Below, piece after piece: positions 31,527 through 36,044 of a DNA stretch of 64,000 nt. The stretch covers positions 308 through 64,307 of the forward strand of contig JBFYMG010000053.1 in NCBI GenBank assembly GCA_041305025.1, read 5' to 3'. Under the pieces are notes generated by a model, which was not told the DNA's origin, ran no database searches, and saw only the letters and a program-made list of their open reading frames with translations. Source of the DNA: Thermoplasmatales archaeon (GTDB lineage: Archaea > Thermoplasmatota > E2 > DHVEG-1). A program made the translations under genes and the position numbers. The stretch's first letter is position 1; every line of letters starts with the position of its first letter.

Positions 31527-34500
31527 TCACTCCAAACAAGCATCAACCATCGACAAAATCTGTCGTTTCGTAAACGTATTCTGCTGTGAAACACCACTCG
31601 GACACAGTGCAGAACACGCACCACAACCCTGACATAGGATTTCATTTATAACAACAATTTTCTTTTCTTCATCAAAGGTTATCGCATCATATGGACATAT
31701 CTCAAGACATAGTTTGCAACCGGCACATTTGCTTGATATAACGCGGGCAATATTTCCCTTAGTTTCCAAATATTCTTTTGAAAGAATAGTTGCCGCTCGT
31801 GCACCAGTTGCCTTTGCTTGTAGTATAGACTCTTCAATAAAGCGCGGTGAGTGCGCAAGACCACACAAGAATATGCCGTCGGCCGAAAAATCAATTGGAC
31901 GCAACTTAACATGCGCCTCAGAATAAAATTTATCCTCATTCAAAGGAACTTTCAACTGTTGTGCCAGAACGATGTTGTCCTGTGGAATAATGCCTGTACT
32001 CAAAACCAGTTTATCTGGATGGAGATTAAGTTCTCTGCCAAGTATTTGTTCAATTGTTTTCACATTTATCTTGCCGTTATCAATTTTAACATCTGGCTCT
32101 TTTTCATCATCGTATCTTACAAAGAGTATTCCTTTTTTGCGTGCTTTTTTATAGAGTGTGTCTTCTCGGAAACCGTAAGTTCGTATATCGCGGTACAAAA
32201 CATACACGGCAGCATCTGGATTAATTTCCTTTAGTTTCAATGCATTCTTCAAAGCCTGTGAACAGCAAATTCGGCTACAATAGGGACGGTCATCATTTCT
32301 TGATCCAACGCACTGGATCATGACAATTTCTTTGAGCTTCTTAAGATAAGGCTTATCCTCGAATAGATCTTTTTCGAACTCAGTCTGCGTAATAATATCT
32401 TCATTTTTAGAATAATGGTATTCTTTTGGTTTGTATGGCAATCCGCCGGAAGCAACTACAACAACACCATGCTCTATTTCTGCAGGTACGGCCTTATCCT
32501 TTGATTTCAACTTGGTTTTAAAATTACCAACATAACCTGAAACATTATCGATTGTTGTACTCTTGAACACTTTTATTTTTGTATGATTTTGGATCTCTTC
32601 GATTGTCGCTTTCAATAATTCCTGAGGTTTTTCTTCGGCAATTCCAAGGTAAATATCTTTTAGATGGCCGCCAAGCTCTGACTCCTTTTCAACGAGAAAT
32701 ACATCATATCCTTGATCTGCAATGGAAAGCGCAGATTGCATGCCTGCAATTCCGCCGCCGATAACCAAGGCACTATGAACGACTGGAATCTGCAAATGCT
32801 GAACCGAATACAAGTCAGCTGCTTTTGACACTGCCATTTTCACCGCATCGATTGCTTTATCATTTGCACCCTTTGGATCAGCCCTATGCACCCATGAATT
32901 CTGATCGCGAAGGTTCGCCATTTCAAACAAGTGGGGATTTAAACCCGCCTGGCGTAATGTATCTTGGAACAATGGTTCATGGGTACGTGGTGTACACGAT
33001 GCAATAACCACACGATTCAAATTAAACTCTTTGATTTTCTCCTTTATTTTTTCTTGAGAATCTTGCGAGCATGTAAAGATACTGTCATCAGCATACACAA
33101 CATTCGGGAGTTTTTTTGCGTATTCAGCTACTTTTTTAACATCAACAACACCAGCGATGTTAATGCCGCAATGACAGACGAATACGCCGACACGCGGGAA
33201 CTCTTGTTTAACATCACGCTCTTCAGGATACACTTTTTCAACGATTTCTGTTCCACGCATTTCAGCAATAGCTTTGGCTGCCTCAGCCGCGGCGGCAGAT
33301 GCTTGCGTAACGCTTTCGGGTATATCCTTTGGTTCTGTCACAGTACCAGATGCATAGATGCCCTCTCGCGAAGTAAGAATTGGAGAAAATGGATCGGTTT
33401 CAACAAAGCCGTATTCATTTAGATTTACGTCTAGAACTTTACCTAAATCACCTAAAGCATTACATGGTTGCAATCCGACAGACAAAACAACCATGTCGTA
33501 ATTTTCATTCTTTAAAGTTCCATCATCATCGACGTAGCGGACAACAAGATTTTTCGTATCACGATCCTGCTCCACACCAGGAATACGACATCGACGATAA
33601 ACCACACCATATTCATCTTTTGCCCGCTCGAAATACTTATCAAAATCTTTGCCAAACGAACGCATGTCCATAAAGTAAACATGGGTCTCTACACCAGGTT
33701 CATGCTCTTTGGCAATCACTGCCTCTTTTGTAGCATACATGCAACAAACTGACGAGCAATATTTTTTATCACAGCTTTCATCGCGAGAACCGACACACTG
33801 CAACCACGCAATTTTTTTCGGTGCTTTTCCATCAGAAATGCGTTGGATATGACCTTTATATGGTCCAGATGCCGAAAGCATTCGCTCAAATTCAATACTA
33901 GTCAAAACATTGGGATATACATGATATCCGTAACTATCTGCTCTTGGTGGTGCGTACTCAGCAAAACCCGGAGACACAATCACTGCACCCACATCAATTG
34001 TTTCTGTTGATTCTTTCATTTGATGATCAACGGCATTGCGTCCGCAGTACAACACACACTGCAGACATTCACAACATCCGGCGCAGTTCAGACATCGTTG
34101 CGCTTCGCGGATCATCTGATCTTTGCTGAACCCTTGATCAACCTCAACAAATGATTTGATTCGTTCTTCTGGAGAAAGCAAGGAAGAGCACTCACGCGAT
34201 AGCACAAAACGTGGTGCTTCTTTTGGTATTTTTGCTTTATTTTTTTCCTTCTTTTCTCGGCCTATTTTCAAATCTTCATTATTCAAATATCGATCAATAG
34301 AAATTGCAGCGTCATGACCGGCAGCAATCGCTTCTACTGCCGATGCTGGTCCCGTCACCGCATCGCCACCGGAAAAGACTCCTTCCAAAGACGTTTGAAG
34401 TGTCAATGGATCTACATCGATTAGTTCTGATTTATTTAATTTAATTTCATTTTGTTCCAAAGGCGCGGCATCAACTTCTTGCCCAATTGAAAAAATAACA

Positions 34501-36044
34501 TAATCACATTCAATGTCAAATTCAGAACCTTTAACCACAATTGGTTTTCTACGGCCAGATGCATCCGGTTCCCCGAGTTCCATCTTTGCGCACTGCAAAC
34601 ACGTGTCTTTTTCATTCTTATGCAGCTTTGTCGGATTCGTCAAAAAGTTAAACTTAATACCTTCTTCCTGCGCTTGCTCGATCTCCTCTCTATTTGCAGG
34701 CATCTCCTTTAAAGACCGTCGGTAAACAACGGTTATTTCACCGCCAAGTCGTCTTGCAGTACGAGCGGAATCCATTGCAACATTTCCACCGCCAACAACC
34801 ACAATTTTTTTACCTTTAAAATAATCTGGAGCAATCATGTCTCTGTTGAGTTGTTCCAGGTATTCAACGCCCTGTAGGATATGAGAATCCAAACCCTGGC
34901 AACATTCTACACCAGACGCACGGCTCTTATGCGCACCAATAGCAACAAAAAATGCTTTGAATCCTTGACTTTTCAGATCTTTCAAATTAAAATCTTTTCC
35001 AAATTTCTGATTGTTTTTTATTTCTATATTACCATCCGCACATAACAAATCTATCTCTTTACGTAAATATTCTCGCGGGAGTCTATAATCTGGAACACCG
35101 TAGCGAAGCATACCGCCGTTGTACTTTTCCTCTTCAAAAATAGTCGGCTTATAACCTAATCGCGCAAGATCATATGCTGCTGTAAGTCCAGCTGGACCGG
35201 CACCAATGACTGCAATCTTTTGTTCTTTACCACGTTTTAAATCTACTTCGACGATATTTTTGGCCTTAGTTTTCTCATCACGCTTTTTACGATAGTCAGC
35301 CAGCTCCTCCGGGTGTTCATAGATATAATCTGCGATAAATCGTCTGATCTTGCAAATGGAAACTGATTCTTCGATATCTTTACGATTGCACTCACCTTCA
35401 CAAGGATGATAACAAATTCTACCAAGCGATCCTGGTAAAGGGATGGTATCTCGTATAAGTTCGTAAGCTTCTGCAAATTTTTCTTGGGATGCCAATGCGA
35501 TAAAGCCCTGCACATTCAAACCTGCAGGACATGCAAGTTTACATGGCGATACATCTTCGTTTTTAGCAATTGCAAAAACATTTGGGATGGCTTGCGGAAA
35601 TGGCTGGTAAATAGCCTTATGAACTGCAAGTCCTTCGTCAAAATCAGATGCCATTTTAACCGGGCAGTGCTCAACACAATCACCACATCCGTTACATTTC
35701 TCAAGATCGACAAATCTAGGATGCTTCGTAACTGTAACATGAAAATCTCCTACCGCTCCAGCAATACCAGTAACTTCAGCATTAGTAATGATTCTGATAT
35801 TCTCATGACGGCCAGTGTAGACTAGTTTAGGGGCAAGAATGCACATGGCGCAGTCGTTCGTCGGAAAAGTTTTATCCAGTTGCGTCATCGTTCCGCCGAT
35901 GGAAAGCCCGCGGTCGACAATGTAGACCTTAAATCCAGCATCGGCAAGATCGAGCGATGATTGAATACCTGCAATACCGCCACCTATGACAAGCACTGAA
36001 CCGTGTTTTGCATTAGTAATCGAAGTGCCTCTCTTATTTGTCAT
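31527..36044 (-). CDS. HdrL-like giant fusion: HdrA module + inserted GltD/NfnB-type NAD(P)H module + second HdrA module
   Basis: 1505 aa. The N-terminus carries VIGGGIAGIQSSLDLADAGFKVYIV...LDKTFPTNDCAMCIL. The insert carries CKLACPAGLNVQGF...CYHPCEGECNR, KIAVIGAGPAGLTAAYDLARLGY...GGMLRYGVPDYRLPRE and KKIVVVGGGNVAMD. Next come an internal RVGVFVCHCGINIAG and LVIGGGIAGMQSALSIADQGYDVFLVEK. Confidence 0.85.
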   Translation of the reverse strand: MTNKRGTSITNAKHGSVLVIGGGIAGIQSSLDLADAGFKVYIVDRGLSIGGTMTQLDKTFPTNDCAMCILAPKLVYTGRHENIRIITNAEVTGIAGAVGDFHVTVTKHPRFVDLEKCNGCGDCVEHCPVKMASDFDEGLAVHKAIYQPFPQAIPNVFAIAKNEDVSPCKLACPAGLNVQGFIALASQEKFAEAYELIRDTIPLPGSLGRICYHPCEGECNRKDIEESVSICKIRRFIADYIYEHPEELADYRKKRDEKTKAKNIVEVDLKRGKEQKIAVIGAGPAGLTAAYDLARLGYKPTIFEEEKYNGGMLRYGVPDYRLPREYLRKEIDLLCADGNIEIKNNQKFGKDFNLKDLKSQGFKAFFVAIGAHKSRASGVECCQGLDSHILQGVEYLEQLNRDMIAPDYFKGKKIVVVGGGNVAMDSARTARRLGGEITVVYRRSLKEMPANREEIEQAQEEGIKFNFLTNPTKLHKNEKDTCLQCAKMELGEPDASGRRKPIVVKGSEFDIECDYVIFSIGQEVDAAPLEQNEIKLNKSELIDVDPLTLQTSLEGVFSGGDAVTGPASAVEAIAAGHDAAISIDRYLNNEDLKIGREKKEKNKAKIPKEAPRFVLSRECSSLLSPEERIKSFVEVDQGFSKDQMIREAQRCLNCAGCCECLQCVLYCGRNAVDHQMKESTETIDVGAVIVSPGFAEYAPPRADSYGYHVYPNVLTSIEFERMLSASGPYKGHIQRISDGKAPKKIAWLQCVGSRDESCDKKYCSSVCCMYATKEAVIAKEHEPGVETHVYFMDMRSFGKDFDKYFERAKDEYGVVYRRCRIPGVEQDRDTKNLVVRYVDDDGTLKNENYDMVVLSVGLQPCNALGDLGKVLDVNLNEYGFVETDPFSPILTSREGIYASGTVTEPKDIPESVTQASAAAAEAAKAIAEMRGTEIVEKVYPEERDVKQEFPRVGVFVCHCGINIAGVVDVKKVAEYAKKLPNVVYADDSIFTCSQDSQEKIKEKIKEFNLNRVVIASCTPRTHEPLFQDTLRQAGLNPHLFEMANLRDQNSWVHRADPKGANDKAIDAVKMAVSKAADLYSVQHLQIPVVHSALVIGGGIAGMQSALSIADQGYDVFLVEKESELGGHLKDIYLGIAEEKPQELLKATIEEIQNHTKIKVFKSTTIDNVSGYVGNFKTKLKSKDKAVPAEIEHGVVVVASGGLPYKPKEYHYSKNEDIITQTEFEKDLFEDKPYLKKLKEIVMIQCVGSRNDDRPYCSRICCSQALKNALKLKEINPDAAVYVLYRDIRTYGFREDTLYKKARKKGILFVRYDDEKEPDVKIDNGKINVKTIEQILGRELNLHPDKLVLSTGIIPQDNIVLAQQLKVPLNEDKFYSEAHVKLRPIDFSADGIFLCGLAHSPRFIEESILQAKATGARAATILSKEYLETKGNIARVISSKCAGCKLCLEICPYDAITFDEEKKIVVINEILCQGCGACSALCPSGVSQQNTFTKRQILSMVDACLE

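What the first reader, a model, noticed from the sequence alone, without database searches (positions are those of the whole stretch)
31527..36044. HdrL-like 1505-aa fusion: a GltD/NfnB-type NAD(P)H oxidoreductase inserted into an HdrA, followed by a second HdrA
The chain starts as HdrA (GGGIAGIQSSLDLADAGFKVYIV, LDKTFPTNDCAMCIL, CNGCGDCVEHCP). It then switches to a complete GltD/NfnB-like unit: Fe-S region CKLACPAGLNVQGF...CYHPCEGECNR, FAD site VIGAGPAGLTAAYDLARLGY and NAD(P)H site VVVGGGNVAMD. It returns to HdrA sequence (LTSIEFERMLSASGPYKG, CVGSRD, YCSSVCCMYATKEAV). It then restarts with an HdrA N-domain (RVGVFVCHCGINIAG) and a second FAD module. Large HdrL-type proteins have been described from sulfate-reducing bacteria. 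Finding one in an archaeal hdrABC operon would directly wire pyridine nucleotide to the bifurcating flavin.
Basis: partly seen in the sequence, partly recalled or inferred. Interest (0 to 1): 0.6.

Follow-up and report, generated by a model that had tools for sequence, protein, structure and literature searches.

The report
Archaeal HdrL: HdrA with NADPH module
The 1505-residue gene is real and encodes a known but never purified giant iron-sulfur flavoprotein (HdrL, or "type III HdrA"), in which an NADPH-binding module is spliced into a fused pair of HdrA units; here it sits in a sediment archaeon (Thermoplasmatota), in an operon whose closest relatives are bacterial.

Summary
Observation confirmed.

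Compared with solved HdrA, the chain is two complementary HdrA halves fused together:
- Unit 1 has no N-terminal or C-terminal domain and keeps the Cys194/197 pair.
- A 494-residue GltD/NfnL-like module is inserted exactly between the two cluster motifs of unit 1's inserted ferredoxin domain.

All Cys ligands for nine [4Fe-4S] clusters and three flavin sites are invariant in 95 full-length relatives.

The insert most resembles the NADPH-input module of the solved StnC and NfnA subunits, where that flavin does not bifurcate. It is circularly permuted relative to NfnB. It has an NADPH-type GxGxxA/YRR site and a Lys/Arg-type cluster ligand, not a Glu-type one.

The gene is not an assembly join. 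Two other metagenomes carry the same eight-gene operon, and dN/dS is 0.04-0.09 in every module.

The design is published: bacterial HdrL, ANME-1 HdrA9-11, and "type III HdrA". The same gene set (hdrABC, HdrL, MvhD, FdhB-like) is known from Syntrophobacter. This is a new member of a known kind. Interest is low to moderate. The enzyme's reaction is still untested in any organism.

The parts
31527..36044 (-). hdrL: 1505-aa fused HdrA-GltD-HdrA flavoprotein (P0001)
35562..36044 (-). Unit 1, first part (res 1-161). FAD-binding start of the thioredoxin-reductase-type domain, Cys65/Cys68 (= HdrA Cys194/197), and the first [4Fe-4S] motif of the inserted ferredoxin domain (C117, 120, 123, 127). There is no N-terminal cluster domain.
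   Evidence: aligns to HdrA 146-290; Cys invariant 95/95
34080..35561 (-). Inserted GltD/NfnL-like NADPH:FAD module (res 162-655). Two [4Fe-4S] clusters (C168, 172, 211, 215, 219, 651, 654 plus R234 at the Lys/Glu ligand position), FAD motif GAGPAG (281-286), NADPH motif GGGNVA (418-423), and YRR (441-443).
34083..34208 (-). Permuted segment (res 613-654, 'SLLSPEERIKSFVEVDQGFSKDQMIREAQRCLNC'). It corresponds to the N-terminus of NfnB/NfnL but lies after the module, two residues before HdrA's second ferredoxin motif.
   Evidence: separate HMMER stretches to 5jca_L 2-46 and 4ylf_B 12-43, continuous with 9bov_A/8oh5_C; pLDDT is 90 or higher here.
33204..34079 (-). Unit 1, second part (res 656-947). 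Second [4Fe-4S] motif of the inserted ferredoxin domain (C657, 660, 663, 667), the rest of the FAD domain with E720 and K773 (= HdrA E356/K409), and the [4Fe-4S] cluster C750/763/767/768. There is no C-terminal ferredoxin domain.
31530..33203 (-). Unit 2 (res 948-1505). N-terminal cluster domain (C957, 959, 992, 1017), second FAD domain (GGGIAG 1096-1101; E1224, K1266), [4Fe-4S] cluster C1245/1256/1260/1261, and a C-terminal 2x[4Fe-4S] ferredoxin domain (C1440-1481). It has no DCxxC pair and no inserted ferredoxin domain.
31063..31521 (-). mvhD (152 aa, [2Fe-2S] adaptor), 5 nt downstream of hdrL
   Evidence: FlpD, E 3.5e-58. It follows HdrL in about 70 of 80 related loci.
29934..31052 (-). FdhB/FrhB-like flavin/Fe-S subunit (372 aa)
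   Evidence: 9t1s_M, 8rvu_E, 7bkb_E FdhB; E from 2e-31 to 9e-28. It follows MvhD in many related loci.
29267..29932 (-). Internally duplicated HdrC-like protein (221 aa)
26213..29260 (-). hdrAA: 1015-aa tandem HdrA with the same layout as HdrL but without the insert (52-56% identical to HdrL)
36055..38010 (-). Canonical full-length hdrA (651 aa)
   Evidence: HdrA models matched over 3-650
38023..38895 (-). hdrB (290 aa, two CCG domains)
38902..39453 (-). hdrC (183 aa), first gene of the eight-gene operon

Best explanation
The gene encodes an HdrL ('type III HdrA') subunit of a soluble, HdrABC-associated electron-bifurcating or confurcating complex.

Shown from sequence:
- The chain is a single-chain pseudo-heterodimer of HdrA. 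Unit 1 supplies a flavin with the strictly conserved bifurcation hallmarks (E720, K773), the cluster that leads to HdrC/HdrB, the Cys65/Cys68 pair, and the inserted ferredoxin domain.
- A GltD/NfnL-like module with FAD, an NADPH-type nucleotide site and two [4Fe-4S] clusters is spliced between the two clusters of the inserted ferredoxin domain.

Inferred:
- NADPH reduces the insert's flavin, which does not itself bifurcate, as in StnC and NfnA.
- Electrons pass one at a time through the insert's two clusters and the ferredoxin-domain clusters to the unit 1 flavin.
- There the pair is split. One electron goes through HdrC/HdrB to a still unknown disulfide. The other goes through the C-terminal ferredoxin domain, MvhD and the FdhB-like subunit to a low-potential acceptor, probably ferredoxin.
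- The net reaction would be 2 NADPH + Fd(ox) + RSSR' -> 2 NADP+ + Fd(red) + 2 thiols, or the reverse, which would make NADPH from reduced ferredoxin.

The eight-gene operon matches bacterial HdrABC/HdrL clusters gene for gene, and transfer between the domains is likely. The direction, probably from bacteria, is not shown.
For: - **Domain map:** made against solved HdrA 5ODC.
- **Conserved cofactor sites:** in 95 full-length relatives, all Cys for 9 [4Fe-4S] clusters are invariant. Unit 1 E720 and K773 are 95/95. Unit 2 E1224 is 78/95 and K1266 is 82/95.
- **Insert's closest solved relatives:** by sequence, 9n5u_A (1.9e-108), 9bov_A and StnC 8oh5_C score above NfnL 5jca_L at 1e-80. By fold, the AF2 model has pLDDT 92.7 and pTM 0.90. 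Foldseek aligns 529-556 columns to NfnA/StnC against about 440 to NfnL/GltD.
- **Non-bifurcating precedent:** in those enzymes the module binds NADPH and its FAD does not bifurcate (PMC10482914, PMC11829005, PMC12018979).
- **Nucleotide site:** GxGxxA is invariant and YRR is present.
- **Cluster ligand:** the position is Lys in 71/95 and Arg in 20/95, never Glu. This is the StnC K170 type.
- **Fused HdrA precedent:** BamE is a structurally solved fused HdrA dimer. Its N-terminal unit carries the bifurcating FAD, and it has the same seven-cluster scaffold (bioRxiv 10.64898/2026.04.10.717634).
- **Operon partners:** MvhD, the FdhB-like subunit and HdrCB are conserved next to HdrL across phyla. 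The same gene set, Sfum_0819-0824, was detected as protein (PMC5947623).
- **Purifying selection:** seen in all modules.
- **No other donor module found:** the MAG has no other GltD/NfnB homologue.
Against: - No HdrL has been purified, so the reaction, its direction and the branch assignment are inferred by analogy.
- In canonical HdrA and in BamE, the inserted ferredoxin domain is the low-potential exit, not the entry. The insert could therefore mark NADP+ as an acceptor.
- The disulfide substrate is unknown. The family has no DsrC (0/61), and no CoM/CoB metabolism is expected.
- The FdhB-like partner cannot use F420, because CofE and CofH are absent in 61 of 61 family genomes. Its substrate is unknown.
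- The window protein has Arg, not Lys, at the special cluster ligand.
- The operon also encodes a canonical HdrA and an insert-less HdrAA. Which of these pair with HdrBC is not known.
- The MAG is only 73% complete.
Confidence: 0.6

Rival explanations
1. NADP+ replaces ferredoxin as the acceptor of the 'low-potential' branch. Electrons enter through the FdhB-like subunit and MvhD, as in canonical Hdr and BamE. The unit 1 flavin splits them between HdrBC (disulfide) and the inserted ferredoxin domain, whose only outlet is now the GltD-like module, so NADPH is made. In reverse, NADPH plus thiols confurcate onto the MvhD-side carrier, as proposed for ANME-1.
For: The insert sits exactly in the domain that reduces ferredoxin in solved HdrA. 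In BamE that domain feeds the low-potential output (bioRxiv 10.64898/2026.04.10.717634). [quoted passage not shown] The high-confidence model packs the module onto the ferredoxin domain, which would block ferredoxin access (the same argument is made in PMC12054007).
Against: NADP+ (about -320 to -370 mV) is not much lower than plausible donors. A donor near -230 mV would be needed, and none is evident. F420 is excluded. In StnC and NfnA the homologous module is a mid-potential input (PMC10482914, PMC12018979).
Confidence: 0.2
2. Two bifurcation sites in one chain. The NfnB-like flavin is itself a bifurcating flavin, as in NfnSL, in addition to the HdrA flavin.
For: The insert is 41% identical to T. 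maritima NfnB, whose FAD bifurcates. This idea was raised for ANME-1 HdrA9-11 (PMC9012536). R321, the equivalent of NfnB R201 and StnC R239, is invariant.
Against: No NfnA/NfnS-type partner ([2Fe-2S] with a second FAD) is in the operon, and nothing resembling a high-potential outlet lies next to the insert. The proximal-cluster ligand is Lys/Arg as in the non-bifurcating StnC/NfnA, never the Glu of NfnL. Sequence and fold are closer to StnC/NfnA than to NfnL.
Confidence: 0.06
3. HdrL works without HdrBC as an NADPH:ferredoxin (Nfn-like) redox hub together with HdrA, HdrAA and the double HdrC-like protein. The adjacency of hdrCB reflects a separate enzyme.
For: Many related loci have MvhD next to HdrL but no HdrB or HdrC within 10 kb. 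The operon holds three HdrA-type genes but only one HdrB. No known disulfide carrier is present. The MAG has no other NfnB/GltD homologue.
Against: The unit 1 cluster that contacts HdrC in solved complexes is invariant. hdrC and hdrB lie in the same tight operon here and in the closest relatives. HdrB keeps both CCG motifs.
Confidence: 0.12
4. The long ORF is an assembly or binning artefact that joins separate hdrA and gltD/nfnB genes.
For: None was found.
Against: Stop-free frames of about 1460-1670 aa with the same order occur in 94 of 100 fetched loci. These include the isolate genome Desulfofundulus australicus DSM 11792. A 95.7%-identical 1505-aa gene lies in the same eight-gene operon in two other metagenome samples, with no indels over 4515 nt. 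dN/dS is 0.04-0.09 in each module. The junctions are conserved and modelled with pLDDT above 85.
Confidence: 0.01

Closest known systems
[quoted passage not shown]
   Same: A large HdrA-type protein with a built-in NAD(P)H-binding GltD-like domain and mvhD immediately next to it. The Sfum cluster has the same gene set: hdrABC, an FdhB-like Fe-S protein, MvhD and HdrL. Full-length relatives at 44-57% identity occur in Syntrophobacteraceae, Desulfobacterales, Bacillota, Chloroflexota and others.
   Different: The host is an archaeon (Thermoplasmatota) with no DsrC and no sulfate-reduction context. There is no selenocysteine. The special cluster ligand is Arg instead of Lys. I did not align directly to the HRM2 or Sfum proteins.
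Type III HdrA / HdrA9-11 of ANME-1, especially class 'A9-TRX-C', and class A10 of Bathyarchaeota (PMC9012536, PMC12054007)
   Same: A GltD/NfnB-like insertion of about 500 aa interrupts the inserted ferredoxin domain. The K409 and E356 equivalents are kept. The gene lies in clusters with several hdrA genes. A second thioredoxin-reductase domain follows in class A9-TRX-C.
   Different: The lineage is different and does not metabolise methane. The 2025 survey covered only methane- and alkane-metabolising archaea and found nine sequences. Here the nucleotide motif is GxGxxA plus YRR, which points to NADPH, whereas that paper inferred NAD+ for its sequences. No ANME-1 sequence could be fetched for a direct comparison.
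BamE of class II benzoyl-CoA reductase, Geobacter metallireducens (bioRxiv 10.64898/2026.04.10.717634)
   Same: A fused HdrA dimer in one chain. The N-terminal unit carries the bifurcating FAD and the inserted ferredoxin domain. The C-terminal ferredoxin domain receives electrons through an MvhD-like adaptor. The scaffold has seven clusters, the same as the HdrA-derived part of HdrL and as the 1015-aa HdrAA of this operon.
   Different: BamE has no GltD-like insert. Its second flavin has Gln at the Lys position, whereas here unit 2 keeps Lys1266. Its partners are BamBC, BamD and BamGHI. The comparison rests on the paper's description only; the coordinates were not in the PDB copy.
NfnL-like (GltD-like) domain of StnC and NfnA in the Bfu-type transhydrogenases StnABC/NfnABC (PDB 8OH5, 9BOV, 9N5U; PMC10482914, PMC11829005, PMC12018979)
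   Same: These are the best sequence and fold matches to the insert. The permuted order is the same, with the helix and CxxC after the Rossmann domains. The proximal-cluster ligand is of the Lys type. NADPH is the bound nucleotide. The module is likewise an insertion between Fe-S domains.
   Different: The host scaffold is NuoG/FdhA-like, not HdrA. Bifurcation there happens at an FMN 'flavobicluster' in another subunit.
FlxABCD-HdrABC and HdrABC-MvhD-MetVF (NADH-linked Hdr complexes of bacteria)
   Same: Functional analogy: a pyridine nucleotide serves as the mid-potential substrate of an HdrA-based bifurcating complex with an MvhD-type adaptor (described in PMC5947623 and PMC5736913).
   Different: In those complexes the NADH site is on separate subunits that feed in through the MvhD-type adaptor. 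Here the nucleotide site is inside HdrA's ferredoxin domain.

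Membership tests
HdrL / type III HdrA (HdrA with inserted GltD-like domain) | HdrA-type thioredoxin-reductase FAD domain with its [4Fe-4S] cluster (C-x12-C-x3-CC) | tested here: met
   C750/763/767/768 and C1245/1256/1260/1261 are invariant.
HdrL / type III HdrA (HdrA with inserted GltD-like domain) | A GltD/NfnB-like NAD(P)H-FAD module of about 500 aa inside the inserted ferredoxin domain, between its two cluster motifs | tested here: met
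   the insertion lies between HdrA residues 290 and 292 and is 494 aa long.
HdrL / type III HdrA (HdrA with inserted GltD-like domain) | K409 and E356 equivalents next to the HdrA flavin | tested here: met
   K773 and E720 are 95/95. Unit 2 K1266 is 82/95 and E1224 is 78/95; both are present in the window protein.
HdrL / type III HdrA (HdrA with inserted GltD-like domain) | mvhD adjacent, as in all D. autotrophicum hdrL loci | tested here: met
   mvhD lies 5 nt downstream. It is adjacent in about 70 of 80 related loci.
HdrL / type III HdrA (HdrA with inserted GltD-like domain) | Direct orthology to the named proteins (HRM2 HdrL1-3, Sfum_0824, ANME-1 HdrA9-11) | not tested
Only MAG relatives from the same bacterial families were compared.
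Fused HdrA dimer (type II HdrA / BamE-like) | Two thioredoxin-reductase units in one chain with complementary parts: one unit has Cys197 and no N-terminal domain, the other has the N-terminal domain and no Cys197 | tested here: met
   Unit 1 has C65/C68 and no N-terminal domain. Unit 2 has C957/959/992/1017 and no DCxxC. The order is the reverse of that stated for ANME HdrA3/4 (PMC9012536).
NfnSL-type NfnB/NfnL (bifurcating subunit) | Two [4Fe-4S] clusters, FAD (GxGxxG) and an NADPH site | tested here: met
   Seven invariant Cys. GAGPAG, GGGNVA and YRR are present.
NfnSL-type NfnB/NfnL (bifurcating subunit) | Glu ligand on the FAD-proximal cluster | tested here: not met
   The position is R234. 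In the family it is K 71, R 20, H 4 of 95, never E (mapped through StnC K170 and PMC10482914).
NfnSL-type NfnB/NfnL (bifurcating subunit) | NfnA/NfnS partner ([2Fe-2S] and FAD) encoded alongside | tested here: not met
   No such gene is in the eight-gene operon.
NfnSL-type NfnB/NfnL (bifurcating subunit) | Canonical order: N-terminal helix and CxxC come before Cx3CP | tested here: not met
   That segment lies at residues 613-654, after the module.
Glutamate synthase small subunit (GltD) | Works with a GltB large subunit | tested here: not met
   No gltB-like gene is in the operon. The module is embedded in HdrA.
F420-dependent Hdr-FdhB type complex | The organism makes F420 for the FdhB/FrhB-like subunit | tested here: not met
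   CofE had no match in any of 61 family genomes, and CofH had no match over the cut-off in any of 61. The controls were positive.

The most novel reading that the evidence does not exclude
In this F420-less, DsrC-less and presumably CoM/CoB-less archaeal lineage, the HdrCBA-HdrL-MvhD-FdhB-like operon could act on a thiol/disulfide carrier that has not been identified. It could also be the cell's only link between ferredoxin and NADPH. The clade-wide replacement of the Lys ligand by Arg (R234) on the flavin-proximal cluster would then be a natural retuning of that cluster's potential, suited to running the enzyme towards NADPH formation.
Probability: 0.15. Interest if true: 0.55.

Novelty: new member of a known kind. 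Interest (0 to 1): 0.3.

Why it matters
HdrL-type proteins are very common. The search returned 7896 protein clusters at E <= 1e-20 among the 8000 candidates scored (these include partial matches). At least 27 of 401 genomes of this archaeal phylum carry a full-length copy. They are abundant in the S. fumaroxidans proteome (PMC5947623), and a transcript with a matching annotation was reported from MBG-D archaea (PMC6461988). Even so, I found no report that any has been purified.

They probably tie the NADPH pool directly to flavin-based electron bifurcation in energy-limited anaerobes, including sediment archaea that are among the most widespread on Earth.

This copy adds no new principle. It does give:
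- a clean, intact archaeal example in a complete operon;
- evidence that the whole module is shared between bacteria and archaea;
- sequence arguments that the built-in NADPH flavin is an input port of the StnC/NfnA kind rather than a second bifurcation site.

Tried and rejected
- **Read-level check of the junctions.** I used independent assemblies and dN/dS instead.
- **First tree.** My N-terminal trimming cut 34 sequences down to unit 2, so the tree is invalid. I rebuilt it.
- **E216 as cluster ligand.** I first took E216 ('PCE') to be the Glu ligand of the NfnB-type cluster. After mapping StnC K170, NfnL Glu and DPD Gln onto the alignment, the ligand position is R234 (PMC10482914, PMC12018979). 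E216 is conserved but is not the ligand.
- **F420 for the FdhB-like partner.** Rejected: CofE and CofH are absent in 61 of 61 family genomes.
- **DsrC as the disulfide substrate.** Rejected for this lineage (0/61).
- **Rooting the HdrL tree with insert-less HdrAA paralogues.** This failed because they interleave with HdrL.
- **ANME-1 HdrA9-11 and BamE sequences.** Those comparisons rest on the papers' descriptions.
- **Structure of the full 1505-aa chain.** It exceeds the 1200-aa limit, so only residues 100-700 were modelled. No coordinates are returned, so cluster-to-cluster distances could not be measured.

Full report
**Observation.** The window holds one stop-free ATG ORF at 31527-36044 on the minus strand, 1505 aa. 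Pfam and NCBIfam match HdrA models in four separate stretches. They also match a GltD/NfnB-type unit: Fer4_20 at 166-243, Pyr_redox_2 at 276-576, and NF009410 at 530 bits (cut-off 516) over residues 163-686.

**Anatomy.** phmmer against solved structures gave these alignments to M. wolfeii HdrA, PDB 5ODC:

| P0001 residues | HdrA residues |
|---|---|
| 17-161 | 146-290 |
| 656-874 | 292-511 |
| 948-1126 | 2-180 |
| 1369-1501 | 513-647 |

- Residues 162-655 (494 aa) are therefore an insertion between HdrA residues 290 and 292. That point lies exactly between the two cluster motifs of the inserted ferredoxin domain.
- Unit 1 (residues 1-947) has no N-terminal cluster domain and no C-terminal ferredoxin domain. 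It keeps the DCxxC pair, C65/C68, which corresponds to Cys194/197.
- Unit 2 (residues 948-1505) has the N-terminal domain and the C-terminal 2x[4Fe-4S] domain. It has no DCxxC pair and no inserted ferredoxin domain.
- The two units are thus complementary halves of an HdrA dimer. This is the pattern described for fused and tandem HdrA in ANME (PMC9012536) and resolved structurally in BamE (bioRxiv 10.64898/2026.04.10.717634).
- In an alignment of 95 full-length relatives, every Cys needed for nine [4Fe-4S] clusters is invariant. They are the two inserted-ferredoxin clusters, two in the insert, one in each flavin domain, one N-terminal, and two C-terminal.
- The flavin-N5 hallmarks of bifurcating HdrA, K409 and E356, are 95/95 in unit 1 (K773, E720). 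They are less strict in unit 2: K1266 is 82/95 and E1224 is 78/95. Both are present here.

**The insert.**
- Its best solved relatives are not classical NfnB. They are the NfnL-like domains of the Bfu-type transhydrogenase large subunits: 9n5u_A at 1.9e-108, 9bov_A at 1.2e-102 and StnC 8oh5_C at 2.7e-96. These compare with 1.2e-80 for P. furiosus NfnL and 1.8e-76 for T. maritima NfnB, to which it is 41% identical.
- The module is circularly permuted relative to NfnB and GltD. The N-terminal helix plus CxxC of NfnB ('SPE.R..F.EV..G......EAQRCL.C') lies after the Rossmann domains, at residues 613-654. It ends two residues before HdrA's second ferredoxin motif. The same order is seen in StnC and NfnA.
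- An AlphaFold model of residues 100-700, built on a 50-sequence alignment, is very confident: pLDDT 92.7 and pTM 0.90, including the junctions and the permuted segment. Foldseek aligns 529-556 columns to NfnA/StnC and only about 440 to NfnL/GltD/DPD.
- The nucleotide site is GGGNVA (GxGxxA, invariant) followed by YRR. This matches the NADPH-binding relatives.
- The non-Cys ligand of the flavin-proximal cluster is Glu in bifurcating NfnL and Lys in non-bifurcating StnC (K170) and NfnA. In this family the position is Lys in 71, Arg in 20 and His in 4 of 95, never Glu. The window protein has R234. StnC K170R keeps about half its activity (PMC10482914).
- These features argue that the insert is an NADPH port with a non-bifurcating flavin, not a second bifurcation site.

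**Real gene, not a join.**
- Read mapping was unavailable.
- Frames of about 1460-1670 aa with the same order occur in 94 of 100 fetched loci, including the isolate Desulfofundulus australicus DSM 11792.
- A 95.7%-identical 1505-aa gene lies in an identical eight-gene operon, with the same flanks, on contigs from two other metagenome samples.
- Against that copy there are no indels over 4515 nt, and dN/dS is 0.09, 0.08, 0.04 and 0.07 for the four parts.

**Context.**
- The gene is the fourth of eight tightly spaced genes (gaps of 1-12 nt) on the minus strand, spanning 26213-39453. The order is hdrC, hdrB, canonical hdrA, hdrL, mvhD, an FdhB-like subunit, a doubled HdrC-like protein, and a 1015-aa tandem HdrA. 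The FdhB-like subunit's best PDB hits are the FdhB chains of Hdr-Fdh complexes. The tandem HdrA has the HdrL layout without the insert.
- MvhD follows HdrL in about 70 of 80 related loci. The FdhB-like gene follows MvhD in many, and HdrCB is often adjacent. One bacterial locus, L006, has the same HdrA-HdrL-MvhD-FdhB-like-HdrCC-HdrAA order.
- This is the gene set of the HdrABC/HdrL cluster Sfum_0819-0824, detected as protein in S. fumaroxidans (PMC5947623).
- The contig is archaeal. It carries a type III RuBisCO and an AMP phosphorylase. The nearest relatives are Thermoplasmatales/Thermoplasmatota MAGs.

**Distribution and origin.**
- In 401 genomes of the phylum, at least 27 carry a frame of 1400 aa or more that spans the junction. 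Ten of these are from the same family, at 68-73% identity.
- On trees of the HdrA scaffold with the insert columns removed, the window's clade (families f1 and f22) is monophyletic. It is sister to a Sumerlaeota bacterium, and that pair groups with Bacillota and Chloroflexota sequences at weaker support. Two other archaeal groups sit elsewhere among bacteria, so the domain label changes at least three times.
- The trees are unrooted. Transfer from bacteria is likely but not proven.

**Mechanism.** This is inferred by homology to StnC/NfnA, solved HdrA and BamE.
- NADPH reduces the insert flavin.
- Electrons pass through the two insert clusters and the ferredoxin-domain and N-terminal clusters to the unit 1 flavin.
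- Bifurcation there sends one electron to HdrC/HdrB and a disulfide. The other goes through the C-terminal ferredoxin domain, MvhD and the FdhB-like subunit to a low-potential acceptor, probably ferredoxin. The reaction may also run in reverse.
- The main rival keeps the canonical wiring, with input through MvhD, and makes NADP+ the acceptor at the former ferredoxin site.
- The third substrate is not F420, because CofE and CofH are absent in 61 of 61 family genomes with positive controls.
- The disulfide is not DsrC (0/61).
- The MAG, which is 73% complete, has no other NfnB/GltD homologue.

**Comparison with the known.**
- The architecture is published as HdrL (PMC2702500), HdrA9-11 of ANME-1 (PMC9012536) and 'type III HdrA', including class A9-TRX-C (PMC12054007). 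The last paper states that no biochemistry exists for this type.
[quoted passage not shown] I did not show that it has this architecture.
- Earlier notes of this scan on other genomes reach the same classification. They are not independent evidence.

**Verdict.** This is a new member of a known kind. The following are modest additions rather than a new principle:
- the archaeal, non-methane-metabolising host;
- the operon it shares with bacteria;
- the permuted StnC/NfnA-type insert;
- the clade-specific Arg ligand.

Noticed in passing
window 35341-35343 (codon of R234 of P0001); loci L001-L003, L081-L096: The special non-Cys ligand position of the flavin-proximal [4Fe-4S] cluster in the insert corresponds to StnC K170 and to Glu in NfnL. 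It is Arg in all 19 sequences of the archaeal f1+f22 clade and in L087. It is Lys in 71 of 95 family members, including the bacterial sister L004. This looks like a clade-wide natural K-to-R change at a site where the engineered K170R halves StnC activity.
   Followed up: partly
window 26213-29260; L012:6644-9703, L013:7682-10723, L066:13463-16507, L006:18922-22158: Insert-less tandem HdrA (HdrAA) paralogues do not form one group on the scaffold tree. They interleave with HdrL sequences; for example, the L012 and L013 HdrAA copies group together as sister to the L013 HdrL. The GltD-like insert has therefore been lost or gained repeatedly, or adjacent paralogues undergo gene conversion.
   Followed up: partly
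window 29934-31052: The operon has an FdhB/FrhB-like subunit. Its best PDB hits are F420-dependent FdhB chains of Hdr-Fdh complexes. Yet CofE and CofH are absent from all 61 genomes of the family searched, so its substrate cannot be F420 and remains unknown.
   Followed up: partly
window 38023-38895 (hdrB): HdrB keeps both CCG cluster motifs, but the family has no DsrC (0/61). As a non-methanogen it presumably has no CoM-S-S-CoB either. The disulfide that this Hdr reduces is unidentified.
   Followed up: partly
G130:C1:40834-42156 and G125:C2:58506-59819 (relatives); P0083-P0120: Relatives in the same family carry a second HdrL-like variant of 1650-1690 aa (45-51% identical over the first three quarters of the junction region). 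It lies about 7-8 kb from the 1500-aa form on the same contig. 'Thermoplasmata archaeon M8B2D' carries this variant.
   Followed up: no
G060, G072, G090, G100, G171, G001, G352 (same class): Other families of the class have proteins of about 1000-1050 aa that span the same HdrA/GltD junction at 41-44% identity. These are probably single HdrA units with the insert and no second unit.
   Followed up: no
window 44258-45292 and 45374-48046: A histone-deacetylase-family gene lies next to an 890-aa fusion of an NDP-forming acyl-CoA synthetase with a GNAT domain, which is the bacterial Pat protein acetyltransferase layout. This is a possible lysine acetylation/deacetylation pair in an archaeon.
   Followed up: no
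window 52908-55644: Type III RuBisCO and AMP phosphorylase lie side by side (the archaeal AMP salvage pathway). This helps confirm that the contig is archaeal.
   Followed up: no
window 57837-61181: A 652-aa NuoF/HydB-like protein with an N-terminal [2Fe-2S] domain and a C-terminal 4Fe-4S domain is flanked by two smaller genes. This may be a Bfu-type (HydABC-like) NAD(P)H/ferredoxin module.
   Followed up: no
G000:C68:3538-3852 (own genome, other contig): A 123-aa frame matches the permuted segment (624-655) and then the Fe-S region (167-235) of the insert, in the canonical NfnB order. It may be a stand-alone Fer4_20-type Fe-S protein. It is the only other trace of a GltD-like Fe-S domain in the MAG.
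   Followed up: no
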